A DNA stretch of 64,000 bases from a virus (lineage: Duplodnaviria; Heunggongvirae; Uroviricota; Caudoviricetes): IMG/VR virus record IMGVR_UViG_3300013902_000267; one strand, 5' to 3'. Position 1 is the first letter of the stretch. Every line of letters starts with the position of its first letter. A program made the position numbers and the translations under genes. The notes below the pieces were generated by a model that ran no database searches, was not told the origin of the DNA, and worked only from the letters and a program-made list of their open reading frames with translations. This document shows positions 13,167 through 62,682 of this stretch, piece by piece.

Positions 13167-13180
13167 TTTTTATTCTATAT

Positions 13181-13227: not shown

Positions 13228-13262
13228 TTTTATAAACATTCACATTTAATTTTACTATAAAA

Positions 13263-14042: not shown

Positions 14043-14216
14043 ATGAAGAAGATTTTATTTGTACTTGCTGCTGTTGTAACAATGAGTTTCGCTTCTTGTG
14101 GTAACAAGACTACTACATGTGGAACAGCAAATGATTCAACTGCAACAGATACTACAGTTGTTGATTCTACAGCTACAGATTCAACTGCAGCTGATTCTAC
14201 AGTTTGTCCTATGTAA
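14043..14216 (+). CDS. Small lipoprotein (signal peptide plus lipobox Cys) with a DSTAT-type tandem repeat
   Basis: MKKILFVLAAVVTMSFASC-GNK, a Bacteroidota-type lipoprotein signal. Preferred over the antisense track ORF 14027..14221. Confidence 0.55.
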   Translation: MKKILFVLAAVVTMSFASCGNKTTTCGTANDSTATDTTVVDSTATDSTAADSTVCPM

Positions 14217-14301
14217 TTCATAAGACAAACTTTATTTTAGAGAAGATTATTGTGTAATTAAAATATAACCTAATATAAGGTTTATATTAAACTAATTTTA
14301 G

Positions 14302-14350
14302 AGATATACTAAATATATTCATTTATATTTGGTATATCTTTTTTTATTTA
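14302..14350 (+). terminator. Rho-independent terminator (AGATATAC ... GTATATCT, then TTTTTTATTT)
   Basis: 8-bp stem with a long loop and a T-run. Confidence 0.45.
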
Positions 14351-14389
14351 ATAAATATTTAAAATTTATTTAACTGAATTATATAATAT

Positions 14390-15286: not shown

Positions 15287-15292
15287 TAATAT

Positions 15293-16333: not shown

Positions 16334-16335
16334 TT

Positions 16336-19300: not shown

Positions 19301-19425
19301 TTCCAGGAACTATGATAACATTTATGAACTATATGACAAAAAATACATAGAGAACAACAGAATTCTCTGTAAGTAGTGAAATAGACGAAAACACATTACA
19401 AAAAAATAGTAATAATGATAAATGA
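16336..19425 (+). CDS. Large tail fibre/baseplate-like protein (about 1029 aa) with an N-terminal G/S/D/N-rich low-complexity region and a C-terminal peptidase-M15 domain; TAG-recoded (more than 20 TAG)
   Basis: One frame from ATG 16336 to TGA 19423-19425. Track fragments 16612, 17380, 17827 and 18856 are all in the same frame. M15 motifs 'SHLYGEAIDI' and 'HYHIG' near the C-terminus. Confidence 0.6.
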
Positions 19426-21489: not shown

Positions 21490-24400
21490 TTAAATATTTT
21501 CTTTTGGTAAATAAACACGTGTCTTTTGTTCTTTCTGACGTCCATCAGACCAATTCGAAATTTTAGTTAAATCACAATATACCCGAACTTTCATTCTATT
21601 TTAAAGGGGTTAGACTATACCACTAACTTCTTGAGTTACATCTTGGTAGTCGTTGAGGGCTTTTATTTGTTTCGTATCAAATAACTATCCCTGCTGATTA
21701 TCCATTGTTATATCATTAGAATTTTTACACTTTGGTATCTAATGCTTTAGGAACTTCCAGCATATTCGATGTTTGCTATATATGTCACCATATATAGGGG
21801 CATTTAATTAAAAATTTACCCGATTATTCTGTCATATAAACTTACATGAACTGATCCACACTTTGGACATACACTAAATGGTGTCTTTGAAATATATCCA
21901 CAATCTTCACATTTACAATTAGGAACATTAAATGTCCAATATTGACAACCATTCTCTGCCGCAAATTTCATAATGTGAACAATCTGTTTCTTAGACAAGT
22001 GCTCTGACAAATTGAGATGCGCTGCTGAACCACCATCCAAAAAATCTCCAATATAGTTCTTACCATGTAAGGTAATCTTATCAAAGATTGACAATGTTTT
22101 ATCATTTGGTTTGAATATGTAAGACGCATACAGGTTAGTGTCTGTTGGTACCCAATCAACTCTGTTACATGATTACATAATAATTTTAATATTATTGTTG
22201 AATGTAATCTGATTTATTAATATATTCATTTAGATTTATTAAACCTGCATGAATTTTCCTATGACAATTTGAACATACACATACACATTTTTTTATTTCT
22301 TCATATAGTTTTTCTTTACCTCTCCCTCGATGTTTACCTATTGTAAAATCTTTTTCATTTGGATCTATATGATGAAAATCTATACAACATGGTTCATATT
22401 CACTACATATTATACATGGATTCTTTAATGAATATAACCATTCTGTTTTTCTTTTTTGTGAACGCTTATTTTTGTTCATTATGTATTTCAGGATGTGCTT
22501 TTCTCATCTATTTCCTATATAATTTTCTACATTCTTTACATACTGCACGTCCTTTTTCAAACATTTCTATAGACAATTCTTTACCACATTTATTACATAT
22601 TTTTGTTGTCATATATATTAAATTATGTTTTATTATTTATCACCGGAACATGACAAAAATAACATAACCCAATTATATTAATAAACGCTTAATTATTTCT
22701 AATCAAGTCTCTATGTTACCATAGAGTTCGGACTATTGCATAGTTTTGTTTCACAACAAAACTCCTTTTTATTTAGTCTCTCAGGCTGCCCATAACATTG
22801 TTGTTATTGCTTGCCCCTCGTTATCCTTACTACCGGTACCTAAGGTAATAAAATGTAAGGAACTTCGAGTCAATTAAAAAAGGTTTTACATGGACATTGT
22901 TATTGTTGTCTATCCATCTTCAGAATCCCAATTATAATTCTTTATTGCCAAACTTTCAGCTGGTATACATTCAGTATTGAACGTTAACTTATGACCGTTA
23001 AATGTACCTGCAGCTTCTTGATTCTTTTGCTTTATATATCCAAATATTGTTTGACAAAGTTTTTCATAATGAGGATTTACATTACAAGTAATTCCTAAGA
23101 ATTCTGCCATTTGATTAAGACCATTCAAACCAATTGTTAAATATTGCTTATTCAAATTAATAAACCCTGCTTTATATACAGGTAATAATCCTGCGTCATA
23201 CATATCCCAAAGAAGTTCATTATATGCTGTATGATATTTATATACTCTATCAAGAATATTACCAAAATATTCGCACATATCATCATAATGCTCTTCTACA
23301 TTTTCTTTTGTTACTCCAGATTTCTTAACACTGTTAAACCAGTCTTGAGTTATGCGACTAAGATTCAGGGTTATCACACTTTTACTTCCTGTTTGACGTT
23401 TTCTCCATATATTTCTATATGGTCCGGGTCATATCTTATGTTTATTTAAATAATAAACATTGCACTATTTCGGCATTTAAAACGATTCGTTTCCTAAAAC
23501 GTTACTACGTATCAATAGTAGTCCTACTCCACCTGCTCATCACTTAGGGGATGACCTCCACACACATTAATAATTTTTATATGTTCTACCTATTAACATA
23601 TTCCTAAAATTATTCATTAAATAATTTTTATATTTACCGATTTTTAATTCTTCAATAGATTTGCCATTATTATATTGTTCTCTTAAATAAACAACTTCAT
23701 CTTTAGATAACAATGGTAACTTCTATTTACATTTATCAGTTCTAATAGGCATTTTTACATGCATATATGATTTTCCAAATAATATTTTATTAAATCCACT
23801 CCATGAATATAAATTACTATATTCTTTAAAAATATCATCTTCTTTTTCACCATTTACAAAATATCTTATTCTTATGTTTAATACTTCTTCATCAGATAAA
23901 TTCTTAGAATTTGCATGCATATTTCCTCTACGTGTTCTTCGATCTGATTTATAAAAATCATTTACTTTATCTGTATTATATTCTATACCAATTTCAGGTC
24001 TTGTATAATAATGCCAATATTTTGAAAATCCACTTTTTGACATTCTATCTTTATACATTTCATATACTTCTCCAAAAGTATATTTCATAGAATAACGTAT
24101 TTTTCTTAATTCTAATAATTCATTATCATTTAATATTGCTTTGGGATGCTCCTCCCCAACTTTTATTATAGTTGCAGAATGTCCACCCAATGTAGAATTA
24201 TATCCATTATTATAACTATCATATAATTTAATGTAATATATTTCTTTATTATCAGCTTCATCCTAATTAGGAACATTATCTTCTAATATTGAAAAATTTG
24301 ATTCATTAATATTATATTTTCTCATTGCTCTATATAATTTATAATCACTATGTTTCATATCATTTAAATGTTCTCTTACTCTTATATGATAATGATGTGT

Positions 24401-27400
24401 CTACCCAATATATACTTTTCCATTAGGAAATGATATTTTATAAATTGTAAATATTTTATTCATATATTATAAATGTAAAATTATAACATATTTATATTAA
24501 CTTGGCTCGGTATTACCATGCATATAGTTTCACAACTTATGTTTAGGCTTCACCGATGCATTAATATCGCTATATTAATACATTGCTTGATTAGCAATTA
24601 AGCACATAAAGGACCCAAGTTGATCCCTAAATTTCCATTTGTGAAGTTGAATTCCTTTGTTTGTATCTTATTCTTAAGTCTGCAGTTATGTGTTATATTT
24701 CCATTAGGCATTAAGAAATATGGTTCAAGATTCTTATCGCAGAGTTCTACACAATAATAATCTTTTGGTTCATCAAGATTTACAACTTCAACCTTTGTAA
24801 TTTTTCTTATAACAATGTCTTGATCTACATCTTTAAAATCATTTCTAAACATACCCATATATTGTCCATACTCAAAGATAAGTTGATCTCCTGTTTGAAG
24901 CAAATATGCTTGCTTATCTTTAATCATCTTATCATCATCAATAATAGGGAATATATGATCCGGTGTAACTCTCATTACATTTCGTGATTCATCCGGATTA
25001 AAATCGTCTGGAGCGAAATAAATTCTTACTTCTTGAACTGCTTCTGCTTTTACAAACTTAGCATTTACCCATTCACCTGTACATTTACCTGTTGTACCAT
25101 TAAAATTCATATGATATACATTAATAATTTCATCCTTATGCTTTTCATATGCATTTTTAAATGACTCAACCATATATGCGTTTGAACCTGCGTTTTCTTC
25201 CATATTACAAGGTTCTACATACATGAATGGAGTATCACCATCGAAACAACAACTTGATAATGAATCAACTGTATCTGACATATATGTAAAGAATGAATGA
25301 CCTCTTGCATATTCATCCGCCACAAAATCTGCAGATTCCTTATCAAGGAATTCTCCATCCTTATATACTAATGCGAAACTTTCCCATTTATATTCTATAT
25401 AGTTCGTTACACTATATACGTTCATAATAATGAACTGCTTTATGTTACCATAAAGATTAGACTATATCACAATCCTATAAATATAGGATTCTCCCCATTT
25501 CCACTCACTTGAGTGTACTTCCTTTCGGAATAGTCGTTGAACCTTATTATATAAATGAATATTTATGACCATAATATAATCTATTTGCATTTATCGATTT
25601 TACTAATCCTGATATACATGCAGTTCCTCCAATATTTTTAATAACTTCGGACATTGATGAATATATTATATTATTATCTAAACATTTTATTTTCTTTGGA
25701 AACGTTTTTCCCTTCATCGTATTACCAAATGTTTTAATAGAATATAATTCATTCTCTGATTGTGTGCACCATTCTAAATTATCTACTCTATTATCTGATC
25801 TATTACCATTTAAATGATTTACAAATGGTTTATTTTCAGGATTTGGTATAAATTCTTGAGCAACAAGTCTATGACATAAATATCTAGTTTTAATAGAATT
25901 TTGCATTAATGATATTCTTAAATAACCATCTAATGTATATTCTACTTTTAATGGTTTACCTTTATACGGACGTAATCCACCCCATCTACAAGGCACCATT
26001 CTATCTTTACTTCTGAAATTACCTAAATTACTAACTTCAAATGCGCCATCATATCCTGTTATACTTTTCCAAATTTCTTCCATAATATTCTCTTATATAA
26101 TCTTGGTTGCTGATTATCTAATAACTTCGCATATTTATTAGAGTTCCCAGCAGTTAAAGGAGTTTTTCAATAATAAATTACTTTATTATGCCGCAGATTG
26201 ATTTACGGGGAAGGTGATTATCGTACGAAGACGTTCCTTATTAAACCATATCATGAAGTCTTTCTGTAACCATGAAACACTTTCCCAACATGGTCTTGTT
26301 CCTTCTTCATCAGGAAATACAAATTCACCAAACATACCTTCAAAGAACGGTTTATCAAAATAAGAGAAATTTACAACATTTTTTCTTCTACATAAATCGT
26401 TACTTTATGTACGTTACTATTTGTAACTGCTCTATGATTTCCATAGACGATTAACGAATTTCACGTTAAAAGGGTTTGTTTAAACCGTTTAGACTATATC
26501 ACCAAATTTAATTTTCTTAAATTTGCACCTACACTTCCATAACACTTGTTATGTACTCTACTAACTCATTTAAAGTTTTCGATAGTCGTTGAACTTTTAT
26601 CCTTGTAGGATAATTAGCTGCGTATGATTACCCAATCTTTATCGTTTTTACAATCTGATAGCCGTTATACTATCTGCTACTATCTATGTTACCATGATAT
26701 GCTGTAGATAAAGCTCTAAGGGACTTCCCGCAATTCAAGGTGTTTATTAACGTCAGCACATGTAATTTCTCTTATAATTTAATTATTACCAAAATTATGT
26801 ATTTTATACATGTGACAATTTTTACAATATGTTATAAGATTATCTATGTTATTAAGTTCTTTATTTTTTATCGCTAAATTAAATAATTCATCAAAATTAT
26901 CAGTAGGATTTAATTCTGGATGTTCTGATAATAAATTATGAAATAATATTTTAAATGGAACTATATGATGAACTTGAAGATTTTCATGACAACCGCATAG
27001 CTAACAAGTATTATGATCTCTCTCTATAACTTCTGGAACTAATCGATTAAAATATGTTCTTATTTTATTACCTAATCTTGTAGTATCTGTTGTATATGGA
27101 ATATTAGTAATATTTAAACTATTTAATACTCTATTAATTACAGCTATTGTACAATTATATCTCCGTGCCAATTCTGTTTTTGATATTGACTATTCAATAT
27201 ATAAATTATATAATTTTTTATAATCATTAAAATCTTCTGGTATTTCTTTTTTATGATAATTCCACATAGATTCTGCAAAAGTACGTCTTTTAATCCCATT
27301 ATGTTTTAAATGACTTCTTATAGTAGTTGCTGAACAGTTAAATATTTTACCTATTTCTACTGTAGATTTACCATCATTATATAATTTTATTATTTCCTAA

Positions 27401-28901
27401 TCATTTGTATCATCATATTGTTCATAAACTTCATAATTAGTATTTTTTATATTATATTTTTTAAAATATCTATTAATAGTACCTTTATGACATTTATATA
27501 TTTCTGAAATTTCTTTCATTGTTAAACCATTATTAACATAATTTATTAAATCTTCTTTTTTAATTATTAATTTAGATTTTTCAATATTCCATTTTCTTAA
27601 ATATTCTTTAATATTTGCTAATGTTGTATTTCCTTCTTTAGCACACTATTTTCGTGTTAAACCTTTAATAACATAATTTTCATATAACCAATCTCTATCT
27701 TTTGTAAAATATCTATAATTAGACATAATTTCAGATATGTAAAATTACATACAGGATTATGTAATTTTTAATTTATTTTAGTTTATGCTGACTATAATCC
27801 TCTGGAGGCCGCAGGTTGGTTAATTGAATACACGACCTATTGAAAGAATTGTTGAATACATGAACCAATAGTTCTTGTACCATCACCTATCTTAATAGGA
27901 TTCGTAAAATCTTTTATTGAACCTTCAACATCATATTGTGATAATTCTTTCTCATATGCTTCAAGTTCTTCATCTGTTAACTCTCTTTCTGAATTATAAA
28001 CAAGTTCATCACGAAGTTTGTTTAATTCGTCTGAACCAAAATCATGTTTTCTCAATGTATCTACATCTTTACACCAATAATTAGATTCATTAAGAAGTTT
28101 CCTATATTTAGGCCCAATCTTATAAAATTCTTTACTATGCAAATGATAATCTTCACCAAACTCTTTTCTTGCAAAATAATCAAAATAAACAAGAAATTCC
28201 GATGTTGCAACTGCACCTGCAAATTGAGCAGCAACTGCAAATACAAGATTTACATACATACCACAATAAGAATCAAGATTTTGTGGATGACATGAAAGAC
28301 CTCCTATTTTTTCTAAACCATTATGAAGGAATGGATACATAGTTATACTTGTGCAATACGGACTTATGGCACCAGCGAAGCTAGACTCATCGTTCTTATA
28401 TATAATATGGTTTTTTAAATCTTTTTGATATTGTTTTGCTTTAAAATTTGGATATAGTTCTTTAAGTTTCCTTGTAATCATACCTCTGCTTACAAGAATA
28501 TTATCAGCTTTATGAATTTCAGCATTTAATACACCGATATTCTTAGAAGAAACATTAGAATTATCATCTACAGTACTATTTGCAGTATTAGATGCATTCT
28601 TATATCTTTCAATAAATGCTTCCTTATTAGCAACCCATTCTCTAATTTCCTTTTTCTTGTTACGATAAAGAATAAATTCTTTCGCAACTTTAGGATAATC
28701 ATGAGAATACAAACTTGTTTCAATTTGATCCTGTATTTCCTCTACAGGAATACCATCATATGGTGTTATTGAGTTTGCAATATTAGCTATAGTATCTTTA
28801 GTATACTTAGTTTTCGTAGACTTAAACGCCTCACGAATCGCTCGTTTAACTGTCTAAACACTATAGTTCTCAAAACTACCATCACGTTTCGTTACCTTCA
28901 T
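21490..28901 (-). CDS. nrdD: Anaerobic ribonucleoside-triphosphate reductase NrdD, split into about 6 exons by 5 intron-like insertions, with a mini-intein in exon 3. Approximate exons: 28901-27840, 26390-26205, 25425-24601 (includes the intein), 23415-22906, 22165-21819, 21578-21490
   Basis: Exon 1: ATP-cone-like N-terminus 'MKVTKRDGSFENYSV-Q-TVKRAI' and 'SPYCTSITMYPFL'. Exon 2: '...ERLRTIITFPV'. Exon 5: Zn-ribbon 'CEDCGY...CPKCGS' ending '...DRIIG'. Exon 6: 'YCDLTKISNWSDGRQKEQKTRVYLPKENI' completes the RxxGY glycyl-radical motif and resembles E. coli 'WNDGKQ..KDRV'. Intervening segments carry HE ORFs and RNA-like conserved blocks. Confidence 0.7.
21579..21818 (-). mobile_element. Intron 5 of nrdD: small (about 240 nt) ORF-less group I-like intron just after the glycyl-radical Gly codon
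   Basis: Exon 5 stops at TAA immediately after '...DRIIG'. The missing C-terminus resumes about 240 nt downstream in another frame. The intervening sequence has GC-richer structured blocks. I could not find a canonical ending at the 3' splice site. Confidence 0.5.
22166..22905 (-). mobile_element. Intron 4 of nrdD (group I-like), carrying a small HNH endonuclease ORF
   Basis: NrdD reading frames break on both sides. The internal HNH ORF is 22192..22479. Confidence 0.5.
22192..22479 (-). CDS. HNH homing endonuclease (small, 95 aa)
   Basis: 'CIICSEYEPCCIDFHHIDP...CSNCHRKIH' HNH zinc-finger motif. Confidence 0.65.
   Translation of the reverse strand: MNKNKRSQKRKTEWLYSLKNPCIICSEYEPCCIDFHHIDPNEKDFTIGKHRGRGKEKLYEEIKKCVCVCSNCHRKIHAGLINLNEYINKSDYIQQ
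23416..24600 (-). mobile_element. Intron 3 of nrdD (group I-like), carrying a GIY-YIG homing endonuclease
   Basis: Exon 3 ends '...GINLGPLCA' at TAA 24598. Exon 4 resumes after an in-frame TGA near 23415. Confidence 0.5.
23567..24463 (-). CDS. GIY-YIG homing endonuclease; TAG-recoded (3 TAG)
   Basis: 'IYKISFPNGKVYIG-Q-T' GIY-YIG motif with TAG at the conserved Gln. Continuous 299-codon frame from ATG (rc of 24461-24463) to TAA. Contains the track fragment 23723..24190. Confidence 0.7.
24685..25083 (-). other. Mini-intein (about 133 aa, no endonuclease domain) inside nrdD exon 3
   Basis: Begins 'CTGEWVN...'. Block B 'RVTPDHIF' (T-x-x-H). C-terminal 'YYCVELCDKNLEPYFLMPNGNITHN' followed by the extein Cys. 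Confidence 0.6.
25426..26204 (-). mobile_element. Intron 2 of nrdD (group I-like), carrying an HNH endonuclease
   Basis: Shares conserved blocks (TATGTTACCAT, GACTATA, TAGTCGTTGAAC) with the other nrdD introns. Confidence 0.5.
25547..26083 (-). CDS. HNH homing endonuclease (HNH_3 type, 178 aa)
   Basis: 'FEVSNLGNFRS' NUMOD-like N-terminus. 'HRLVAQEFIPNPENKPFVNHLNGNRSDNRVDNLEW' HNH_3 signature. Confidence 0.7.
   Translation of the reverse strand: MEEIWKSITGYDGAFEVSNLGNFRSKDRMVPCRWGGLRPYKGKPLKVEYTLDGYLRISLMQNSIKTRYLCHRLVAQEFIPNPENKPFVNHLNGNRSDNRVDNLEWCTQSENELYSIKTFGNTMKGKTFPKKIKCLDNNIIYSSMSEVIKNIGGTACISGLVKSINANRLYYGHKYSFI
26391..27839 (-). mobile_element. Intron 1 of nrdD (group I-like), carrying an HNH endonuclease with HTH repeats
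   Basis: Structured GC-richer 5' part (CTGGAGGCCGCAGGTTGG). 3' part has the conserved GTTTAGACTATATCACC and TAGTCGTTGAAC blocks. Confidence 0.5.
26779..27726 (-). CDS. HNH homing endonuclease with repeated HTH (NUMOD1-like) modules; TAG-recoded (4 TAG)
   Basis: C-terminal 'CQLCGCHENLQVHHIVP...CKNCH' HNH motif. Three '...KEISEIYKCHKGTINRY...' HTH-like repeats. 316-codon frame, invisible to the ORF track. Confidence 0.6.
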
Positions 28902-29038
28902 ACTTAGTTTTCTTTCTATTTTATTTTTGGTAAAATATTTATTCTCGACTATGAGAATTTTTCAAAATATTATTTTATATATTATATAAAAAAATGCAAA
29001 TGAAGTCTTATAACAAACATCATTTGCATTAAAATATT

Positions 29039-39035: not shown

Positions 39036-40082
39036 TTATTCAGATACATTATCTTTCATAACTTCATGATATTGTTCCTTTGCATATTCTTGCATATCAG
39101 GAACGTCATCTGTTTCATCAATAATTTCAATATTGAGTATTGTTTCGATAACATCCTCCAATGTTACAATACCTCTAAACGTTCCATATTCATCAGTAAT
39201 TGCAGAAATATGTTCATGATTCTTTACCATATCATTAAATATATCTGATACATCTGTAGTATCAATATAGTTATGAATATCATGGACATAATCAGAAATC
39301 TTAATATCCTCCTTTGTTAAATCCAATTCATTCTTAAGAATATAACCACTACAATAGTTATTCATATTCATACAAGGAATACGAGAGAATGTATCACCAT
39401 TAGAAAGATATTTATATAAATCTGTATCTTTATGAACTGTTATATAATCCGCAATAGTTTCAACAACAGTTGCAGGCGTCATAATATCTTCAGCTTTATA
39501 TTGATTAAGTTTCAATATACGTTGAATAATCATATTCTCTTTCTTATCAATTACTCCCTCTTTTGCACCTTCATCTGTCATTGCAATAATCTCTTCACGT
39601 GAAATAGCAACAGCATTATCATTACTAATAAGACGTGTTACAAAATTAAGAATCTTAACCAGTGGATATGTAATATAAATCATTATATTAATTACACGAG
39701 TAACATACAATGTAATATTTTTCCAATAATTTGCACCTATAGTTTTTGGTAAAATCTCAGCAAACATAAGAATCAATACTGTAAATATTGCTGATATGAT
39801 ACCTATAAATGAAGCGCCATCAATACCTTGTTCAACTGCATATGCTGATGCAGCTGAACCAACAATAGATGCACCTACTGTATTTGCAATAGTATTAATA
39901 ATAAGGATAGCAGACAATGGTTTATCCATATTTTCCTTAAAATTTCTTAATATATCTGCCCCAGATTTTCCTTTAAGTGTAGATACAAAAGACATAGGTG
40001 TAGAAGACAAACATGCTTCACATAACGAGCAAATTGCTGATACCACAATGGCAATCAACATATAAATTATAATTGTTTCCAT
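39036..40082 (-). CDS. CNNM/CorC-family transporter (DUF21 transmembrane domain plus CBS pair)
   Basis: N-terminal multi-TM DUF21-like region. 'IMTP...' CBS-pair region. 348 aa. Confidence 0.5.
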   Translation of the reverse strand: METIIIYMLIAIVVSAICSLCEACLSSTPMSFVSTLKGKSGADILRNFKENMDKPLSAILIINTIANTVGASIVGSAASAYAVEQGIDGASFIGIISAIFTVLILMFAEILPKTIGANYWKNITLYVTRVINIMIYITYPLVKILNFVTRLISNDNAVAISREEIIAMTDEGAKEGVIDKKENMIIQRILKLNQYKAEDIMTPATVVETIADYITVHKDTDLYKYLSNGDTFSRIPCMNMNNYCSGYILKNELDLTKEDIKISDYVHDIHNYIDTTDVSDIFNDMVKNHEHISAITDEYGTFRGIVTLEDVIETILNIEIIDETDDVPDMQEYAKEQYHEVMKDNVSE

Positions 40083-40087
40083 TTAGC

Positions 40088-40396
40088 TTAATCTTTTTTA
40101 TAATAATCATTCAGCCAATCACATTTTTTAAGATAATGGATATATTCACCATTACGGAATGATCCCTCTAAATATTGTGTATCATCCCATGTTTCTTCAT
40201 GTGTATAACCTGTCTGAAGACTATGACATAATACTCTTACATCATTACATTCATCTTCATTGAAATCAGTTAATAATGTAAATACCATATCACCTTCACC
40301 ACCACCATTACGGAATGTATAACCAGTTTTCAGATATTGAGGACGAGACCAGAAATCTGAATGATTCATAGGATAGAATTGTACTTTATTACTCAT
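40088..40396 (-). CDS. Hypothetical protein
   Basis: 102-aa ORF. Confidence 0.35.
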   Translation of the reverse strand: MSNKVQFYPMNHSDFWSRPQYLKTGYTFRNGGGEGDMVFTLLTDFNEDECNDVRVLCHSLQTGYTHEETWDDTQYLEGSFRNGEYIHYLKKCDWLNDYYKKD

Positions 40397-40434
40397 AATT
40401 ATTTTATTTTTAATTGTTTAATATACCATATTAA

Positions 40435-40698
40435 TTAGAATGGCAGTTCAGATTCAATAACACCTGGCTCTCCTAATGGGAGAAAATCCATACATGTATT
40501 AGTATTAAATACACGATCAAATGCATACATTACAGAAAACTTTACAAACTCATCCTTATCAACAATAAGATCTGATGTTTCCTGCTGAATATATGATGCT
40601 TCTGCAACTAATGTATTTAATGTATCATTATCAGTTAATTCTTTATTAAAACGATTCTTATATTCGTTTTTAATCATTTCTATTAATGTTGTATTCAT
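40435..40698 (-). CDS. Hypothetical protein
   Basis: 87-aa ORF preceded by promoter-motif copy 5. Confidence 0.4.
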   Translation of the reverse strand: MNTTLIEMIKNEYKNRFNKELTDNDTLNTLVAEASYIQQETSDLIVDKDEFVKFSVMYAFDRVFNTNTCMDFLPLGEPGVIESELPF

Positions 40699-40721
40699 AT
40701 TTCTTATTTTTTATAATTGAA

Positions 40722-40743
40722 TTATTACATCACAAAGATACAC
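40722..40743 (-). promoter_or_regulatory. Conserved promoter-like motif (variant GTGTATCTTTGTGATGTAATAA), copy 5
   Basis: Same family as 9602..9624. 25 nt upstream of the ATG of 40435..40698. Confidence 0.45.
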
Positions 40744-40810
40744 ATATTTTTTAAAACAAAAAAATGATGATACTATATTTTTCAATATAATACCATCATT
40801 TAATATTTAA

Positions 40811-41974
40811 TTATTGTTCGTCAATATAACTATTTGAATCATCATTATCAATATTTTCAGATTGTTCATCTTCAATATTAGTTATACTCTTTAATATATT
40901 ATCTTTATATTTTTTATTTATACATTTATTTAATATATATGGTTCCATAGTTTCCGATCTACTAAACATAAATCCATTTGATTCATATAAATTTGAATTC
41001 TTTTTACATAAAGCAGATATTCTAGAAAATGCAACACCTGTTATCTTTTCCGCATCTTTTAATTTATTACATTTATATAACAATTTTCCGTTTAAATTAA
41101 ATACATTTACTCCTTTTTGTGTTAATAATATATCTTTATTTTTATAATTTACACAATAATTATATATTTCATTAGTCCATTTTCTAGTTAATGTAGGTAA
41201 CTAATATTTTATTATATAATTTTCATAATAATATTTAAAAATAGTTCTTGCTTTCTTAGATGATATAATATAATAACCAAAATTTTTTGTTTTATCTTCT
41301 ATAAAAATATTTGATGTTTTATCCTATAATATTTCTTCAAATCTTTGTTTTATATATAATAGTGTTTCATATGTTCCTACACAACTTATATATAAACGTT
41401 TACTTTTATGTCTATTTTCATTATATACTCCTATAGAACCATCTCCATCTATTACACCTATAATAAAGCAATCCTTATATATAGTTTCTAATATTGGTGG
41501 TATATATACATTCGTTTTCTATTTAGTAATATTAAAATTTTTATATAAATCATTCACTATCTACTCAGATAAAATATGAAAACTTACATTTTTAAATTTT
41601 TTATTATTTAAAATATTATAACCATAATATAATTTATATGTTGATGATATATTATATTTCAACTATTTTAAAAAATTCTCATCTTTTATTGATAATTTTA
41701 TATTCAAATTTTTATTTGTTTTATCTATAGAACCATCGGCAGCTATAAACCCTGCATAGTAAGAATTTATCGGATTTATTAATGAAAAATAATTATCATT
41801 AACATTATAAATACGTTCTCCTTTAATATTTTTCTTTAGTTGTAAATTATATACCTTTTTCCAATATGTTAAATTCTTACAAATTTTACCGGTAATTTCT
41901 TTTGATGCAACCTATTCTGAAATATTTTTATTATTTGCATAATCTATAATTTCCTATAATATATTTTTATCCAT
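40811..41974 (-). CDS. LAGLIDADG homing endonuclease (double-motif); TAG-recoded (7 TAG)
   Basis: 'YYAGFIAADGSI' and 'FIIGVIDGDGSIGV' LAGLIDADG motifs. 388-codon frame from ATG (rc 41972-41974) to TAA. Contains the track fragment 40811..41083. Confidence 0.7.
40860..40886. repeat. 27-nt repeat GATTGTTCATCTTCAATATTAGTTATA (copy A, 3' end of the LAGLIDADG gene)
   Basis: Identical to 42066..42092 at the 3' end of the Rnl2-like ligase gene. Encodes '...ITNIEDEQS' in both. Confidence 0.8.
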
Positions 41975-42008
41975 TTATTAAAAAATATTTTATATATTTA
42001 TATAAAAT

Positions 42009-42038
42009 ATGGAAGCATTTAAACTTAAATGCTTCCAT
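42009..42038 (-). terminator. Hairpin (ATGGAAGCATTTAA / TTAAATGCTTCCAT) downstream of the ligase gene
   Basis: 14-bp inverted repeat between the ligase stop and the LAGLIDADG start. Confidence 0.45.
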
Positions 42039-42043
42039 AAATA

Positions 42044-43555
42044 TTAATTAGTTTCATTTTCTGATGATTGTTCATCTTCAATATTAGTTATACCTGCATC
42101 TAATTCTTTTTCTTCCTTATTAACAAAACGATAGCACTTCAATTTGAATGCACGAGGTATCATATCATCTATTTTAATTACAACACCTTCATGTGGAACT
42201 TTATTATTACATTCAGGTGATAACATTTCCATATAAAAATTCTTATCACTTGACATCTTATTCCAAAAATTTTCGTGCCAATGATTAGTTATATCAAGCT
42301 CAGGATACAAATCTTTAGCTTTACCATAATAATATTCAATTACAGGTGTTAATTCATGTTGAATACACCATACTTGTACTTCTCGTGGTGAAAATTCATG
42401 TACATCTCCATCAACATTTGTTAAAGTAATACGATATATCATTATCTTAAAATGCTTTCCATATGTATACTCTTCACCAGACTTTAAAGGTACACATCCA
42501 TAATCATATCCCTTTTGTATATAATTATTATTTGGAAGATAACCTACAATTTCTGCATAAATCATCATTCCCTTTATCATGTGTGGCTTTAATACATTAA
42601 ATGCTTCACCCCATATATCAAAATTATAGAATCCCTTATGATATACATTACCATTTTTTTCAGATTCCTTCATTATATACTGGTTTTTTATAACAGTTCT
42701 TGATGAATATAAATAATCATAATCATTAAATTCATAACCTGTTAAAAATTTCGCAATTTTCTGCTTTATAGTTAATTGTTTCTTACATAAAACATAACCA
42801 ACACAAAGAGAAGTACCGTGCCATTTAGAACTTATATGTATATAATCATTAGGTTGAACAACAAATGGAACCTTCTTAACAAGTGCAGTGTCGTAATGGA
42901 ACCTAAATTGTTCTGGTATAACTCTGTTAAATCTCTTTAACTTTCGTTGTCTTCTCTTATATCTAGATTGATCACCTCCAGTTTTATTTCTCTTTATAAA
43001 TATCTTTGGTATAAATTTCTTTGATAACCAAAATGATTTACCATTATGTTCAATAGTATCAAACCATGTTCCATCCTTTATATCATTCTCATTAACTTCT
43101 ATATTAAAATTATCTAATATAAAATTAAGAACTACTTGTAATTCTATCAAGAAACCATCTGATACACCATTAGGTAAAAATACTTTTTCAACTTCTCCAG
43201 TAGATGGATCAATTTTATCCATTGTTGCTCGTAGTCTAATGGACTTCACTCTACCATTATCATCAAATAACCCAGTTTTATTAGGATTACTATTCATTTC
43301 ATTTTTACGATATAAATTAGCATATCTTAAAAATTCAGGATTTATTTGTGTACTTGATGGAAAGAATACATATTTTCCTGGTTGTGAATCCTTACTTACT
43401 ATAACATTATAAATTGTATCTCCACCTATTCTACAACACTTTAACTTGTTAACTTCAGGATTAGGATGTGGAGAGAAATCCTCTTCCTTGATATAAATTA
43501 CACGTGAAACATAATTAGGGTGTAATTCACTTTCCTTCGACTTAATAAACTTCAT
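42044..43555 (-). CDS. RNA ligase, Rnl2-like nucleotidyltransferase (KxHG motif I) with an N-terminal extension
   Basis: Motif I 'SSKWHGTS' resembles T4 Rnl2 'KIHGTN'. Motif IV 'HEGVVIKID'. Motif V 'AFKLKCYRF'. 503 aa. Confidence 0.6.
   Translation of the reverse strand: MKFIKSKESELHPNYVSRVIYIKEEDFSPHPNPEVNKLKCCRIGGDTIYNVIVSKDSQPGKYVFFPSSTQINPEFLRYANLYRKNEMNSNPNKTGLFDDNGRVKSIRLRATMDKIDPSTGEVEKVFLPNGVSDGFLIELQVVLNFILDNFNIEVNENDIKDGTWFDTIEHNGKSFWLSKKFIPKIFIKRNKTGGDQSRYKRRQRKLKRFNRVIPEQFRFHYDTALVKKVPFVVQPNDYIHISSKWHGTSLCVGYVLCKKQLTIKQKIAKFLTGYEFNDYDYLYSSRTVIKNQYIMKESEKNGNVYHKGFYNFDIWGEAFNVLKPHMIKGMMIYAEIVGYLPNNNYIQKGYDYGCVPLKSGEEYTYGKHFKIMIYRITLTNVDGDVHEFSPREVQVWCIQHELTPVIEYYYGKAKDLYPELDITNHWHENFWNKMSSDKNFYMEMLSPECNNKVPHEGVVIKIDDMIPRAFKLKCYRFVNKEEKELDAGITNIEDEQSSENETN
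42066..42092. repeat. 27-nt repeat (copy B, 3' end of the Rnl2-like gene)
   Basis: Identical to 40860..40886. Confidence 0.8.
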
Positions 43556-43657
43556 ACTAGATTTAATTTTATTTTCCTATGTCATTCTTTAGTTCGAGTC
43601 TCCACTACTCACGTATCACCAGATTATTTTTTAATAGGAAAATAATCAAACCTATTA

Positions 43658-43930
43658 TTAATATTTAGAAAACTGTTCATTCAGAACAGATAATTCTTTT
43701 TCTTTCTTAAAAATTAGCTTATCTAGGAAATCATCCATCATTCTCATTTCATCTTGATTTAGAATAATGTCAATATATGGTTTTCCATAATGATATGTTT
43801 GATAATCACTTTTCATTATCCATTCAATATCATGCAACTTTTTTAATTCTTTACATGCGGATATAATACCTTTAGTCTTTAATATTCTTTCATGTAAAGA
43901 ATTAATTTTTTTTAAAGTATCTTCATTCAT
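43658..43930 (-). CDS. Hypothetical protein
   Basis: 90-aa ORF. Confidence 0.35.
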   Translation of the reverse strand: MNEDTLKKINSLHERILKTKGIISACKELKKLHDIEWIMKSDYQTYHYGKPYIDIILNQDEMRMMDDFLDKLIFKKEKELSVLNEQFSKY

Positions 43931-43933
43931 AAT

Positions 43934-44425
43934 TTAAAATAGTTTAACGGACGCATTAGTATCCATTCTTTCCTTCATACCATTATTATAATAATCAGCC
44001 AAAATTTCAGCTTTAATTTTAGGTGACAATACTTTCCGTACTACATAATCATAATTAAAATTAAAGAATTCATTTATAGCTATTACCATTTCATATGCAG
44101 ATAATGTCTTCACCTCTGCTAATTTATTTTTCATGTAATAGAAGATTTTCCCTGTTTCTTCCTTAGGTATTTTTGGAACGACGAATGTAGATGTATCAAC
44201 TTTATATTGTTCTGCAAATGGAGATTCTATCCATATGCTATATAATTTTTCTGCTGTATCTTTCCTTTCATGCAACAAGACTATATCATCTGTCATCGCA
44301 TAATCATACTAATCTGCGACTAAAGGAGATACAGTCATTGTTTGACTTGAAAGATCTGCATTATAGTCTGAACTCGCAAAATACCCATCATTACTAAGCA
44401 TCTTCTATGTATTAATTCTTGCCAT
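43934..44425 (-). CDS. Hypothetical protein with a TAG-containing N-terminal extension
   Basis: The track ORF 43934..44296 extends in frame through two TAG codons to ATG (rc 44423-44425): 'MARINT-Q-KMLSNDGYF...'. Confidence 0.4.
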
Positions 44426-44491: not shown

Positions 44492-45682
44492 TTACATAGA
44501 AAATAAATCTTGTGCTTGTATTTGTGTTTCAGTTAATCCTAATTGCGGAGTACTCATAGAATCAGATGCACCGGGACGAATACCAACAGATGAAGAATAA
44601 TTATTTGAATTATTATGTTGGTAATTATTATCTCCTTTATGCTTATCTTTTACTAATCCATCCAATGAAACATTCTCAGGAATAATATTTTCCTCAAGAT
44701 TCTCTTCAATTCTTAAATATGTAGGATTAAAATCAAATTTCTTCTTATCTCCCATGTGTCCAGAATTACGTATTGCTACTGCTTTCAAATAATATGTATT
44801 ATCTACACGCATTAAAGATGACTGAATAATACCGAACAAACTATCAACAGTTGCGATAAGACCTCCAGATTCTGAAACGTTACTCATACCAATATCAGTA
44901 GAATCATATGCAGTTCTATTTGTCTGTGTTAATGATACAACACACCAATTATTTCTCTGAGCCATCGCACGAACATCCTCGCAGATAGATTTAATCTTTA
45001 AATATGTACTTTCAGAATTTGGATTCTTTGCGTCTTTCATAATATTAACATAATCAATGAAAATGTTCTTAAACTTAAATGGTTTATCTTCTGTAGATAA
45101 CTCTTCTTCTTGCTTAAGTAAGAATGACTCAATATCATAAACAGTTGCAGATGATGTAGGGAACTCTTCTATAATAAACTTACCTGGATTAATAAGTGAA
45201 TTCATATAAAATTCCTTCATTTTCTGCATCATAAGATTTGTGTCTGATGCATACTTATCATATTCTTCAATTGGAATATTAAAAAGATTTGAACCTATAC
45301 GTTGTGCTACAAGCTGATAAGCCATCTCCAATGTAATATATGCAGAATTCTCACCATTTCTTACAGAATTCGCACATAGGTTACAAAGCCACATAGATTT
45401 ACCAACTTTAGGTGACCCCATAAATACATTAAGAGTCTTATTTGCCCATCCGCCTTTCAAACATTGATCAACAAAATTATAACCTGTTTTCCTTGTTTCA
45501 AGTTCAGTTTGTTTATGATTAATTGGGTCAAAGAAATCATGTCCTTTAGAATTATTTAATGTAAAATTAGTTTCACTCTGAAATAATGATTTTATATGTT
45601 GTACAATTTCTGCACAATTTTCAAATGTAACTTCAGATTCTGTTGTCTTTACATATTCAATAACTCTTCGGAGACCTGTCAT
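44492..45682 (-). CDS. DnaB-family replicative helicase (C-terminal RecA-like domain)
   Basis: Walker A 'GSPKVGKSMW'. 'ITLEM'. Walker B 'IFIDYVNIM'. 396 aa. Confidence 0.6.
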   Translation of the reverse strand: MTGLRRVIEYVKTTESEVTFENCAEIVQHIKSLFQSETNFTLNNSKGHDFFDPINHKQTELETRKTGYNFVDQCLKGGWANKTLNVFMGSPKVGKSMWLCNLCANSVRNGENSAYITLEMAYQLVAQRIGSNLFNIPIEEYDKYASDTNLMMQKMKEFYMNSLINPGKFIIEEFPTSSATVYDIESFLLKQEEELSTEDKPFKFKNIFIDYVNIMKDAKNPNSESTYLKIKSICEDVRAMAQRNNWCVVSLTQTNRTAYDSTDIGMSNVSESGGLIATVDSLFGIIQSSLMRVDNTYYLKAVAIRNSGHMGDKKKFDFNPTYLRIEENLEENIIPENVSLDGLVKDKHKGDNNYQHNNSNNYSSSVGIRPGASDSMSTPQLGLTETQIQAQDLFSM

Positions 45683-45688
45683 TAAATT

Positions 45689-46000
45689 CTACCATTCGCC
45701 AAATGCTACTGTATTCTGTTCCAACCATTCATCTGTATATTGACTAACCATATCACGAGTTTGCCATAATGTATGAATTTGATCTTCTGTTACTTTATCA
45801 TCTTTAGCTGCTAATCTAATAAGATCTATTGTTTGTTGCTCAGTTGGTTCTGCTCTAAAATCTAATATATGCGGTTTAACCACATCAAATATAATTTTTA
45901 ATGCAGGATTAGTAAAATATCTTCCTTTAAAAGACTATACAAGATTTAAATTCTTAATTATATAAAAGAATATGACGTTTTCAAGATACGTATTATTCAT
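45689..46000 (-). CDS. Hypothetical protein with a TAG-containing N-terminal extension
   Basis: The track ORF 45689..45883 extends in frame through one TAG to ATG (rc 45998-46000). Confidence 0.4.
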
Positions 46001-46125
46001 AAATAAATTATTCTACCTTTGTTTTAATTTATAGTGAGTAAAAGTATTAAAGTTTATTAGCAATTCAAAAATTAAGAAAATTATATATAGTTTTGTAAAA
46101 CTATAAAAATTTCTCAATTTTTATA

Positions 46126-62187: not shown

Positions 62188-62193
62188 ATATAG

Positions 62194-62266
62194 CAGGCCT
62201 GATGAGATTCGAACTCACAACAACATGATTAAAATTCGTGTGCTCTACCAATTGAGCTACAGGCCC
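62194..62266 (-). tRNA. tRNA-Lys (anticodon TTT)
   Basis: 5' GGGCCTGTAGCTCAATTGGTAGAGCA... T-arm GTGAG-TTCGAAT-CTCAT. Anticodon loop ATTTTAA. 73 nt. One C-A mismatch in the anticodon stem. Confidence 0.65.
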
Positions 62267-62470: not shown

Positions 62471-62682
62471 GACAATCTACGTTAACTGTAATACTAAAGC
62501 TCTTGACTCAATGCTAACGCTAAAATCTAGGATTCTGTTTATGCTAAATGTAATCAAGCTAATGCTTTAGTCAATTTACATATGTTATATATGATATTAT
62601 ATTCAAAGTCTATTATTCATATCAAAAATATTTTTAAGAAATAAATATCATAAATGAATCGATAACATTTATTATATAATAT

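What the first reader, a model, noticed from the sequence alone, without database searches (positions are those of the whole stretch)
40811..42092. LAGLIDADG homing endonuclease gene downstream of the Rnl2-like ligase carries a duplicated copy of the ligase 3' end
A 27-nt identical segment (GATTGTTCATCTTCAATATTAGTTATA, rc encodes ITNIEDEQS) ends both the ligase gene (42066-42092) and the LAGLIDADG gene (40860-40886). The two are about 1.2 kb apart. This looks like the footprint of HE insertion into, or just after, the ligase C-terminus with duplication of the target, or of co-conversion during homing. It marks the ligase 3' end as the homing site.
Basis: seen in the sequence. Interest (0 to 1): 0.6.

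Follow-up and report, generated by a model that had tools for sequence, protein, structure and literature searches.

The report
Homing endonuclease inside ligase gene tail
A selfish "homing endonuclease" gene has inserted into the last few codons of an RNA ligase gene of a Lak megaphage, bringing a spare copy of the ligase tail so the ligase stays whole; related phages without the insert have only one copy, and the endonuclease can only be made once the phage switches the cell to its altered genetic code.

Summary
The repeat is real. It is 28 nt long and exact, at 40860-40887 and 42066-42093, and none is expected by chance. The window is Prevotella phage Lak-B (100% identity).

Nine HEG-free Lak-A/C-type loci carry one copy and end the ligase with ...ITNIEDAQSENIDNDDSNSYIDEQ*. 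In Lak-B a 1206-bp cassette sits 16 codons before that stop.

The cassette supplies:
- a replacement ligase tail (S-SENETN*);
- a terminator hairpin;
- a LAGLIDADG gene with no stop of its own, which reads through the second repeat into the original ligase tail.

The gene is 387 codons (41974->40811, minus strand), not the 90-aa ORF. It has seven in-frame TAG codons that are read as Gln.

The cassette is 97% identical in a Lak-C-like genome whose flanks are only 80% identical to Lak-B, so it moves horizontally.

All 12 homologue loci examined lie 65-120 nt downstream of this ligase family. About 30% of 120 homologues end in a ligase-type tail.

Precedents exist: fungal mitochondrial HEGs with duplicated C-termini, T4 free-standing HEGs, and a recoded intron HEG in Agate phages. 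This is therefore a well-supported new variant, not a new kind.

The parts
42044..43555 (-). RNA ligase gene, 503 aa, no in-frame TAG. It now ends ...ELDAGITNIEDEQS-SENETN*.
   Evidence: ORF. Pfam RNA_ligase PF09414 scores 27.1 bits against a cut-off of 27, over residues 239-472. PHROG 968 'RNA ligase' has E=1.6e-23. Homologues carry an N-terminal PF21189 OB-fold domain.
42066..42093 (-). Upstream copy of the 28-nt repeat (GTATAACTAATATTGAAGATGAACAATC on the minus strand), encoding (G)ITNIEDEQS of the ligase.
42044..42065 (-). Cassette-borne replacement tail of the ligase (S-E-N-E-T-N plus TAA). This is a short, diverged copy of the resident tail SENIDN....
   Evidence: Absent from the empty sites of Lak-A/C. 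Present and near-identical in L014 (SSENENN*) and similar in L015 (SLENDN*).
42008..42039 (-). Terminator-like hairpin between the ligase and the endonuclease gene: a 14-bp stem followed by UUUUAUAU.
   Evidence: Terminator scan found 4 sites against 0.2 expected. Fold energy is -22.4 kcal/mol, z=-3.9. L015 has a compensatory G->A/C->U change and L014 a G-U pair.
41975..42043 (-). 69-nt AT-rich spacer of the cassette, which contains the hairpin. A TAA lies in frame immediately before the endonuclease ATG.
   Evidence: A spacer of 65-120 nt is present in all homologous loci.
40811..41974 (-). LAGLIDADG homing endonuclease gene, 387 codons. It has 7 in-frame TAG codons (41954-6, 41912-4, 41663-5, 41561-3, 41519-21, 41324-6, 41201-3). 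The two LAGLIDADG motifs are at 41726-41761 (YYAGFIAADGSI) and 41432-41470 (CFIIGVIDGDGSI).
   Evidence: Translation. Pfam LAGLIDADG_3 scores 30.2 bits against a cut-off of 22.5. This frame has only the terminal TAA and no TGA, against 29 and 61 TAA/TGA in the other two frames. TAG aligns with Gln in homologues. The AF2 model has pLDDT 89.7 and matches I-Tsp061I, I-AniI and I-SceI.
40860..40887 (-). Downstream copy of the 28-nt repeat. This is where the endonuclease ORF joins the resident ligase tail.
   Evidence: In L014 the switch from cassette-type to resident (Lak-C) type falls inside this copy, between 40880 and 40866.
40811..40859 (-). Original (resident) ligase tail ENIDNDDSNSYIDEQ plus the original stop codon. 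It is now the C-terminus of the endonuclease ORF.
   Evidence: The amino acids are identical to the ligase tail of the empty-site genomes Lak-A1/A2/C1, L008 and L009. The tail has low confidence in the model (pLDDT 42-58).
40758..40799 (-). Resident hairpin plus T-run that follows the ligase stop in empty-site genomes. It now follows the endonuclease ORF.
   Evidence: Seen directly in the sequence and conserved in Lak-A/C directly after the ligase stop. The terminator scan did not call it because the stem is AT-rich.

Best explanation
What it is. A free-standing LAGLIDADG homing endonuclease gene (HEG) cassette of 1206 bp is inserted inside the 3' coding end of the RNA ligase gene of Prevotella phage Lak-B, 16 codons before the original stop.

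Anatomy. The cassette carries its own short copy of the ligase tail plus a stop, which keeps the conserved ...LDAGITNIEDEQ motif on the ligase. It then has a terminator hairpin, an AT-rich spacer, and an endonuclease ORF with no stop codon of its own. That ORF runs in frame through a second copy of the ITNIEDEQS segment into the original ligase tail, stop and terminator. The 28-nt repeat is the overlap between the cassette-borne replacement tail and the resident tail.

Shown by the data:
- The insertion exists relative to empty sites.
- The downstream copy is the resident one.
- The cassette occurs in a different Lak background at the same position, with much higher identity than its flanks.
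- The gene is intact, of LAGLIDADG fold, and is read with TAG as Gln.
- The same arrangement recurs across a large, diverged HEG family that always sits behind this ligase.

Inferred mechanism:
- The enzyme cuts HEG-free ligase alleles in or near the conserved tail-coding sequence.
- The break is repaired from the HEG-carrying genome in a co-infected cell. The ligase body serves as the left homology arm. The tail copy at the end of the HEG ORF, plus downstream DNA, serves as the right arm.
- The founding event was probably a one-sided, illegitimate repair that joined the HEG 3' end to the cut ligase tail.
- Because 7 of its 12 Gln codons are TAG while the ligase has none, the endonuclease can be translated only after the phage has imposed TAG=Gln decoding. 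This delays it relative to the ligase.
For: Identity of the window. It is 100% identical to Lak-B2/B4/B7.

Empty sites. In Lak-A1/A2/C1 the flank alignments overlap by 28 nt. The ligase ends ...DAGITNIEDAQSENIDNDDSNSYIDEQ* followed by the same hairpin that follows the HEG in Lak-B. L008, L009 and L031 are also empty.

Horizontal transfer. L014 has flanks 96.8-97.7% identical to Lak-C1 and 80% to Lak-B. Its HEG ORF is 97.4% identical to Lak-B. The switch back to C-type occurs inside the downstream repeat. In L015 the HEG is 90.7% identical against flanks of 78-84%.

Intact gene.
- The frame has no TAA or TGA in 387 codons, against 29 and 61 in the other frames.
- TAG columns align with Gln.
- The motif residues D80, D176 and D178 are invariant or nearly so in 48 homologues.
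- Pfam LAGLIDADG_3 is above its cut-off.
- The model has pLDDT 89.7, with top PDB matches I-Tsp061I, bI3 maturase, I-AniI and I-SceI.

Family-wide pattern.
- All 12 distinct loci have the HEG 65-120 nt downstream of a PF09414/PF21189 ligase.
- 36-38 of 120 homologues end in ...LDxGxxNIEDxx.
- Empty-site ligases at only 50% identity end natively in FLNKEQxxLDxGExNIEDxx*.

Recoding.
- HEG/ligase TAG counts are 7/0, 6/0, 7/0, 8/0 and 3/0 in five TAG-recoded phages.
- In a TGA=Trp phage the HEG has 2 TGA and 0 TGG.
- The three HEGs of the window have the highest TAG share of Gln codons, at 0.58-0.75. Of 53 genes, 32 have none.

Precedent. Borges et al. proposed recoding as a delay for an intron HEG (10.1101/2021.08.26.457843).
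Against: There is no biochemical evidence that the enzyme is active or where it cuts.

With a 28-nt exact duplication, an ordinary 18-24-bp LAGLIDADG site lying wholly inside the repeat would still be present twice in the HEG-carrying genome. Self-immunity therefore remains unexplained.
- The one candidate immunity polymorphism I saw (ACA->ACT, GCT->GCA) also occurs in an empty site, L008.
- The B-like tract upstream of the insertion in L014, which I first read as co-conversion, is also present in the empty site L031. It may predate the insertion.

All Lak-B genomes share the insertion, and Lak-B1 and B2 show no difference across the cassette. Within Lak-B the element may simply be inherited vertically.

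TAG codons also occur in some replication genes (nrdD, the DnaB-like helicase). TAG use therefore does not by itself define a 'late' class.

No suppressor tRNA lies in the window.
Confidence: 0.85

Rival explanations
1. The endonuclease gene is a decaying relic. The TAG codons are real stops, the element no longer moves, and the repeat is only a fossil scar of an old insertion.
For: Under the standard code only a 90-aa ORF survives. All nine Lak-B genomes carry the same insertion with no polymorphism, which is compatible with vertical inheritance. There are no activity data.
Against: All seven interruptions are TAG. The frame has no internal TAA or TGA, against 29 and 61 in the other frames. 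TAG aligns with conserved Gln in homologues from standard-code phages. The genome demonstrably reads TAG as sense in long structural genes. Motif and catalytic Asp residues are conserved, and the fold model is confident. The cassette is 97.4% identical in a background that is 80% identical.
Confidence: 0.07
2. The ligase-type tail on the endonuclease is kept because it is functional for the endonuclease. For example, it could be a short acidic peptide that docks on the same partner as the ligase tail, recruiting the nuclease. Under this reading the duplication is selected for that reason, not as an insertion by-product.
For: The tail motif ...LDxGxxNIEDxx is conserved in both proteins over deep divergence. 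In the HEG family it persists in members with only 33-40% identity and with a different C-terminal DNA-binding module. There are no frameshifts in 36-38 tails.
Against: About 70% of homologues lack the tail and end near ...NKKYL. They nevertheless occupy the same position behind the ligase (L020, L023, L027). In L014 the tail is simply the resident Lak-C tail. The tail is predicted to be disordered (pLDDT 42-58). Repeated homing and gene conversion would also keep it ligase-like. The hypothesis is not exclusive of the main explanation.
Confidence: 0.1
3. The endonuclease gene sits in a self-splicing group I intron, or is part of an intein. The ligase mRNA or protein is then restored by splicing to the original long tail.
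For: LAGLIDADG genes are typically intron- or intein-borne. The ORF is in frame with the downstream ligase tail. Other loci (L020) appear to have additional endonuclease ORFs inside the ligase gene.
Against: Rfam at a permissive E-value finds no group I or II intron in 40600-42400. Only 69 nt are non-coding, and most of that is a simple hairpin. A TAA stop and a terminator-like hairpin separate the ligase from the endonuclease, and a TAA precedes the ATG, so it cannot be an intein. The ligase already has a complete conserved tail without splicing.
Confidence: 0.03
4. The repeat is a chance match, an assembly artefact, or a tandem duplication unrelated to the endonuclease.
For: The genome is 27% GC with strong codon bias, so short AT-rich repeats are common. 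The genome is a metagenome assembly.
Against: No matches occurred in 100 shuffles. The same two-copy structure is found in nine Lak-B genomes, three IMG/VR contigs, and independently assembled Logan and ENA contigs. All HEG-free relatives have one copy. The two copies bracket exactly the inserted DNA.
Confidence: 0.01

Closest known systems
Free-standing homing endonucleases of T4-like phages (seg and mob genes; 'intronless homing'), including mobE, which splits nrdA in Aeromonas phage Aeh1
   Same: The endonuclease gene is not in an intron or intein and lies next to or inside a conserved nucleic-acid-metabolism gene. It shows presence/absence polymorphism among close relatives and spreads with the flanking DNA. 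Expression is delayed relative to the neighbouring early gene (review PMC2988022).
   Different: The catalytic family is LAGLIDADG rather than GIY-YIG or HNH. The insertion lies inside the coding 3' end, with a duplicated replacement tail, and the ORF ends in host-gene codons. The delay would come from recoded stop codons rather than from RNA structures over the ribosome-binding site. The cleavage site is unknown here.
Fungal mitochondrial HEG insertions with duplicated or alternative C-termini (Allomyces macrogynus atp6, Ophiostoma novo-ulmi rps3, Phlebia radiata cox2 and atp6)
   Same: An endonuclease ORF is inserted near the 3' end of a host gene. A new C-terminal coding piece restores the host protein, and the displaced original C-terminus remains downstream (PMC4019555; PMC7902536).
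   Different: Those cases are organellar. In most of them the HEG is fused to the upstream host reading frame or lies after a premature stop. Here the element is in a phage, the HEG has its own start after a terminator, and it is fused to the downstream (original) tail. The arrangement also recurs across a large family and across three genetic codes.
Recoded group I intron endonuclease of Agate phages (Borges et al., stop-codon recoding in phages)
   Same: It is a homing endonuclease gene lying among standard-code early genes that preferentially uses the reassigned stop codon. This was interpreted as preventing production of the endonuclease until late in infection (10.1101/2021.08.26.457843).
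   Different: That case is intron-borne and uses TGA=Trp. Here the gene is free-standing and uses TAG=Gln. The same HEG family shows the pattern in TAG-recoded, TGA-recoded and standard-code phages.
Monomeric double-motif LAGLIDADG enzymes (I-Tsp061I, I-AniI, bI3 maturase, I-SceI, I-OnuI group)
   Same: They share the two-repeat alpha-beta-beta-alpha-beta-beta-alpha core with an acidic residue at the end of each LAGLIDADG helix.
   Different: Sequence identity is only 10-19%. This protein has an extra N-terminal three-helix module (residues 1-41) and a C-terminal NUMOD1-like module (residues ~288-338), plus the captured disordered tail.

Membership tests
LAGLIDADG homing endonuclease family | Two LAGLIDADG motifs, each ending in a conserved acidic residue | tested here: met
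   YYAGFIAADGSI (aa 72-83) and CFIIGVIDGDGSI (aa 169-181). D80 is nearly invariant, and D176, G177, D178 and G179 are invariant in 48 homologues.
LAGLIDADG homing endonuclease family | Significant match to a curated family profile | tested here: met
   Pfam LAGLIDADG_3 PF14528 scores 30.2 bits against a cut-off of 22.5. Homologues also hit PF00961 and PF14528. PHROG 4645 'endonuclease' has E=1.6e-22.
LAGLIDADG homing endonuclease family | Pseudo-dimeric alpha-beta-beta-alpha-beta-beta-alpha fold | tested here: met
   The AF2 model has mean pLDDT 89.7. The top Foldseek PDB hits are all LAGLIDADG enzymes, at E=1.6e-8 to 1e-5 and probability 1.00.
LAGLIDADG homing endonuclease family | Site-specific double-strand cleavage of a long target | not testable with these tools
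   This needs expression of the protein with TAG changed to CAG, and cleavage assays.
Free-standing (intron-less, intein-less) mobile HEG | Not embedded in a self-splicing intron or intein | tested here: met
   There is no Rfam intron match at E<=10. A TAA stop, a hairpin and a 69-nt spacer lie upstream, and the gene has its own ATG preceded by TAA.
Free-standing (intron-less, intein-less) mobile HEG | Presence/absence polymorphism at the same site in close relatives, with a clean empty site | tested here: met
   Occupied: Lak-B1 to B9, L005-L007, L014 and L015. Empty with a single repeat copy: four Lak-A1 records, Lak-A2, Lak-C1, L008, L009 and L031.
Free-standing (intron-less, intein-less) mobile HEG | The element is more similar between genomes than its flanks are (horizontal movement) | tested here: met
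   Between L014 and Lak-B the HEG is 97.4% identical and the flanks ~80%. Between L015 and Lak-B the HEG is 90.7% identical and the flanks 78-84%.
Free-standing (intron-less, intein-less) mobile HEG | Co-conversion of flanking markers | tested here: inconclusive
   L014 has a B-like tract from ~42152 to the repeat, and the right-hand switch lies inside the second copy. However, the same tract is present in the empty site L031, and partial patterns occur in L008, L009 and Lak-A2.
   PF09414 scores 27.1 bits against a cut-off of 27, over residues 239-472. PHROG 968 'RNA ligase' has E=1.6e-23. There is no PDB sequence match at E<=1.
This definition comes from my own knowledge of the family. | tested here: not met
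   The nucleotidyltransferase match lies in the C-terminal half. Homologues have an N-terminal PF21189 OB-fold domain. From memory, an N-terminal OB domain followed by the nucleotidyltransferase is the order in the DraRnl/NgrRnl (Rnl5) group. I did not test that assignment.
TAG-to-Gln recoded phage gene (code 15 usage) | In-frame TAG only, aligned with Gln in relatives, in a genome that reads TAG as sense elsewhere | tested here: met
   Lak-A2 and Lak-A1 ligases break at TAG where Lak-C1 and Lak-B have a Gln codon.
TAG-to-Gln recoded phage gene (code 15 usage) | Suppressor tRNA(CUA) encoded by the phage | tested here: not met
   None is present in the 64-kb window; only tRNA-Gln(CTG) and tRNA-Lys(TTT) are found. 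The rest of the 550-kb genome was not scanned. Suppressor tRNAs are reported for recoded phages, including a Lak representative, in 10.1101/2021.08.26.457843.
Group I intron-encoded HEG | Conserved ribozyme core flanking or overlapping the ORF | tested here: not met
   cmscan against Rfam 15 at E<=10 returned only chance miRNA/snoRNA matches to the hairpin.

The most novel reading that the evidence does not exclude
The duplicated ligase tail is an evolved, working part of the selfish element rather than a scar. Under this reading:
- The upstream copy is a built-in repair patch that makes insertion into an essential conserved motif harmless.
- The downstream copy, as the last codons of the endonuclease ORF, is the element's right homology arm and supplies its stop and terminator.
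- The two direct copies allow precise excision; the hybrid empty site in L008 is what such a loss would leave.
- Production of the nuclease is gated by the phage's switch of genetic code.

The HEG family re-creates this last property in whichever code its host phage uses (TAG=Gln, TGA=Trp or standard).
Probability: 0.3. Interest if true: 0.65.

Novelty: new variant of a known kind. Interest (0 to 1): 0.5.

Why it matters
It gives a clean, base-resolved example of how a homing endonuclease can colonise the coding end of a conserved phage gene without destroying it. There are natural occupied and empty alleles, and the element has evidently moved between Lak lineages.

It defines a large, previously undescribed LAGLIDADG family dedicated to one target, the 3' end of a phage RNA ligase. 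That makes the family a ready source of natural enzyme/target pairs.

It extends the idea that stop-codon recoding times gene expression. Here selfish endonucleases sitting among early genes are among the most heavily recoded genes, in several phage lineages and under two different reassignments.

For annotation, it shows that standard-code gene calling hides such genes in Lak and similar phages. This one appears only as a 90-aa fragment.

Tried and rejected
(1) Group I/II intron or intein. The Rfam scan at E<=10 was negative, and a stop plus a terminator lie between the genes. Rejected.

(2) Pseudogene. Rejected on the stop-codon spectrum and the TAG/Gln alignment.

(3) Silent ACA->ACT and GCT->GCA changes as the immunity determinant of HEG-carrying alleles. 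Rejected as a strict rule, because the empty site L008 has both changes.

(4) A clear co-conversion tract in L014. Downgraded, because the empty site L031 carries the same tract.

(5) Lack of polymorphism in the cassette between Lak-B1 and B2 as a sign of a sweep. There are 0 of 22 differences in 40502-42183. However, 17 of the 22 cluster in 40014-40501, so the absence is not significant.

(6) The promoter scan was uninformative: 31 sites against 34 expected, and Bacteroidota-type promoters are not modelled.

(7) Sequestration of the HEG start by the hairpin. The minimum-energy and centroid folds disagree downstream of the hairpin, so there is no support.

(8) A PDB sequence search with the ligase gave no hit. 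A ligase structure was not predicted because no admissible alignment was built.

(9) A second shared tail type (...LIxEGKIKxEDF) was suspected to mark a different target gene. Its locus (L025) is again behind the same ligase family, whose local tail subtype (MIDEGQVDIEM...) it resembles.
Full report
**Observation.** The 27-mer GATTGTTCATCTTCAATATTAGTTATA occurs exactly twice in the window, at 40860-40886 and 42066-42092. None of 100 dinucleotide-preserving shuffles gave a match, even with three mismatches allowed. BLAST extends the exact identity to 28 nt (40860-40887 and 42066-42093), 1206 nt apart. Both copies are read on the minus strand as ITNIEDEQS.

**Where the window comes from and which code it uses.**
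- The region is 100% identical to Prevotella phage Lak-B2/B4/B7 and 99.5% identical to other Lak-B genomes.
- The window is 27% GC.
- Long plus-strand ORFs at 10.2-19.4 kb exist only if TAG is read as sense, for example 1029 codons with 19 TAG.
- No suppressor tRNA lies within the window.

**True extent of the endonuclease gene.**
- Under the standard code only a 90-aa ORF (40811-41083) is seen.
- Translating 41974->40811 gives 387 codons interrupted by seven TAG codons and nothing else.
- This frame has one TAA (the terminal stop) and no TGA. The other two frames of the same DNA have 29 and 61 TAA/TGA.
- TAG positions align with Gln in homologues, including ones from phages that do not use TAG.
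- With TAG=Gln the protein hits Pfam LAGLIDADG_3 above its threshold. It has two LAGLIDADG motifs with conserved Asp residues.
- It gives a confident model (pLDDT 89.7) whose best PDB matches are I-Tsp061I, bI3 maturase, I-AniI, I-PanMI and I-SceI.
- The model has an N-terminal three-helix module, the double LAGLIDADG core, and a C-terminal NUMOD1-like module.
- The tail from about residue 360 has low confidence.

**Empty sites.**
- Lak-C1, Lak-A2 and Lak-A1 span the same interval in 3.08 kb instead of 4.30 kb.
- Their two flank alignments overlap by exactly 28 nt on the subject, so they hold one copy of the repeat.
- In them the ligase ends ...KEEKELDAGITNIEDAQSENIDNDDSNSYIDEQ*. This is followed by the hairpin plus T-run that follows the endonuclease ORF in Lak-B.
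- Three IMG/VR contigs (L008, L009, L031) are further empty sites.

It follows that the downstream repeat copy and everything after it (40811-40887) is the original ligase tail. The upstream copy plus S-E-N-E-T-N-stop, the hairpin at 42008-42039, the spacer and the endonuclease ORF are the inserted DNA. The endonuclease ORF has no stop of its own. It uses the ligase's original stop and terminator.

**Mobility.**
- A Logan contig (L014) has flanks 96.8-97.7% identical to Lak-C1 and about 80% identical to Lak-B.
- It nevertheless carries the cassette at the same position, with the endonuclease ORF 97.4% identical to Lak-B.
- Its ligase has the cassette-type tail (SSENENN*), and its endonuclease ends in the Lak-C-type tail (DAQSENIDNDDSNSYIDEQ).
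- The switch from cassette-type to resident-type sequence falls inside the downstream repeat, between 40880 and 40866.
- In a third lineage (L015, a 531-kb contig) the endonuclease is 90.7% identical to Lak-B, against 78-84% for the flanks. The two repeat copies there share 34 exact nt.

The cassette has therefore moved between Lak lineages.

**A caveat on co-conversion.** A B-like tract in the last ~90 nt of the L014 ligase first looked like co-conversion. The same tract occurs in the empty site L031, and partial patterns occur in L008, L009 and Lak-A2. The ligase 3' end is thus a patchwork across Lak genomes. That fits a recombination hot spot, but it does not prove co-conversion in L014.

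L008 has a hybrid single copy (GCA, ACT, then GCACAATCT). Recombination between the two copies of an L014-like allele would leave exactly this sequence, but so would ordinary polymorphism.

**The arrangement is family-wide.**
- A database search found 415 homologues, many of them full length.
- All 12 distinct loci I looked up have the endonuclease 65-120 nt downstream of a 450-520-aa ligase with PF09414 and/or PF21189 domains. A hairpin usually lies in the spacer.
- Of 120 homologues, 36-38 end in ...LDxGxxNIEDxx. These include members with only 33-40% identity and members with a different C-terminal DNA-binding module.
- Empty-site ligases that are only ~50% identical to the Lak-B ligase end natively in FLNKEQxxLDxGExNIEDxx*. 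The motif therefore belongs to the ligase.
- In L017 the endonuclease tail (FLNKEQKDLDKGITNIEDEQ*) is closer to that consensus than the ligase's own, presumably cassette-borne, tail (FISGPDSLDEINIEDEN*).
- Tail-less endonucleases (L020, L023, L027) occupy the same position and end near ...NKKYL.
- A second tail type (...LIxEGKIKxEDF) resembles the local ligase tail subtype.

The simplest reading is a HEG lineage specialised on the ligase 3' end. Its ORF became joined to the cut ligase tail, with the duplicated tail carried along since then.

**Recoding.**
- The endonuclease has 7 TAG among 12 Gln codons. The ligase has 0 of 14.
- The same contrast holds in L014 (6/0), L015 (7/0), L016 (8/0) and L017 (3/0).
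- In L019, a phage that uses TGA as Trp, the endonuclease has 2 TGA and no TGG at conserved Trp positions, while the ligase fragment has 3 TGG and no TGA.
- In the window, the three endonuclease genes have the highest TAG share of Gln codons: this LAGLIDADG gene, an HNH-HTH gene at 26779-27744, and a borderline GIY-YIG gene at 23567-24466. Their shares are 0.58-0.75. Of 53 genes, 32 have no TAG.
- Borges et al. already suggested that recoded stops delay production of an intron endonuclease in Agate phages. The idea is therefore not new, but the pattern here is broader.
- TAG also occurs in nrdD and in the DnaB-like helicase, so TAG use is not a strict early/late marker.

**What is inferred, not shown.**
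- That the enzyme is active.
- That it cuts HEG-free alleles in or near the tail-coding sequence.
- How HEG-carrying genomes avoid self-cleavage when 28 nt of the site region are present twice.
- That the replacement tail is needed for ligase function.
- That translation is delayed.

**Comparison with known systems.**
- The element works like the free-standing endonucleases of T4-like phages. It differs in catalytic family and in lying inside the coding end of its host gene.
- The duplicated or alternative C-terminus has clear precedents in fungal mitochondria: Allomyces atp6, Ophiostoma rps3 and Phlebia cox2. There the endonuclease is usually fused to the upstream reading frame.
- I found no description of this arrangement in phages, nor of this ligase-associated LAGLIDADG family, in the searched literature. 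That search covers open-access papers only.
- The neighbouring ligase belongs to the RNA ligase nucleotidyltransferase family, but it has an N-terminal OB-fold domain. That is not the T4 Rnl2 domain order.

**Verdict.** The feature is a well-documented new variant of a known kind of selfish element, of moderate interest.

Noticed in passing
window 22886-28961 (- strand): The anaerobic ribonucleotide reductase gene nrdD appears to be in pieces. An ATP-cone+NRDD N-terminal fragment lies at 27783-28961 and matches only profile positions 15-157 of 562. It is followed by an HNH + multi-HTH endonuclease ORF at 26779-27744 (4 in-frame TAG). Further ORFs lie at 25547-26092 and 24598-25590, then a GIY-YIG-like ORF at 23567-24466 (3 TAG; 22.2 bits against a cut-off of 22.6), then 22886-23428. 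I did not determine whether these are introns or a split gene.
   Followed up: partly
window 10195-19425 (+), 62680-63897 (+): These are TAG-rich genes that exist only with TAG read as sense. Examples are 16336-19425 (1029 codons, 19 TAG) and a phage lysozyme at 62683-63897 (9 TAG; PF00959).
   Followed up: partly
window 33-104 and 62193-62266: tRNA-Gln(CTG) and tRNA-Lys(TTT) are present. No suppressor tRNA with anticodon CTA lies in this 64-kb window.
   Followed up: no
window 44492-46120 (- strand): The DnaB-like helicase reaches a homologue-like length only if the TAG codons (3) in the stop-to-stop frame 44492-46120 are read as sense. The standard-code ORF is 396 aa, while the L015 homologue is at least 500 aa with PF03796.
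   Followed up: no
L002 (Lak-A2) and L003 (Lak-A1) ligase genes: The ligase reading frame breaks at an in-frame stop where Lak-C1 and Lak-B have Gln (…KKKLNWK*/Q KIAKY…; …RRQ/* KKLKRF…). The ligase is therefore TAG-free in Lak-B and Lak-C but not in Lak-A. I did not print the stop codon itself.
   Followed up: partly
L019 (Logan ERR12324407 contig 3095): This 27% GC phage contig uses TGA as Trp. Several genes have in-frame TGA. The HEG homologue has 2 TGA and no TGG, both at conserved Trp positions.
   Followed up: partly
L020/L021/L022 positions ~750-3924; L016 positions 2340-3387: In these phages the ligase gene itself seems to be interrupted upstream of the tail. In L020 a 290-aa PF21189 fragment, a 200-aa LAGLIDADG_2 ORF and an 82-aa ligase C-terminal ORF are preceded by NUMOD1/NUMOD3 ORFs. 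In L016 only a 180-aa ligase C-terminal ORF is called, after ~1 kb without a called gene.
   Followed up: no
L008 (IMGVR_UViG_3300045988_166570) around position 5450-5510: This empty site carries a hybrid repeat sequence (GATGCAGGTATAACTAATATTGAAGATGCACAATCT). The sequence equals the product expected from recombination between the two repeat copies of an L014-like occupied allele. It could be a footprint of precise HEG loss or simply polymorphism.
   Followed up: partly
window 40014-40501: Of the 22 differences between Lak-B2 (the window) and Lak-B1 across 40000-44300, 17 cluster in the two small ORFs just downstream of the HEG (40088-40698). None lies in 40502-42183.
   Followed up: no
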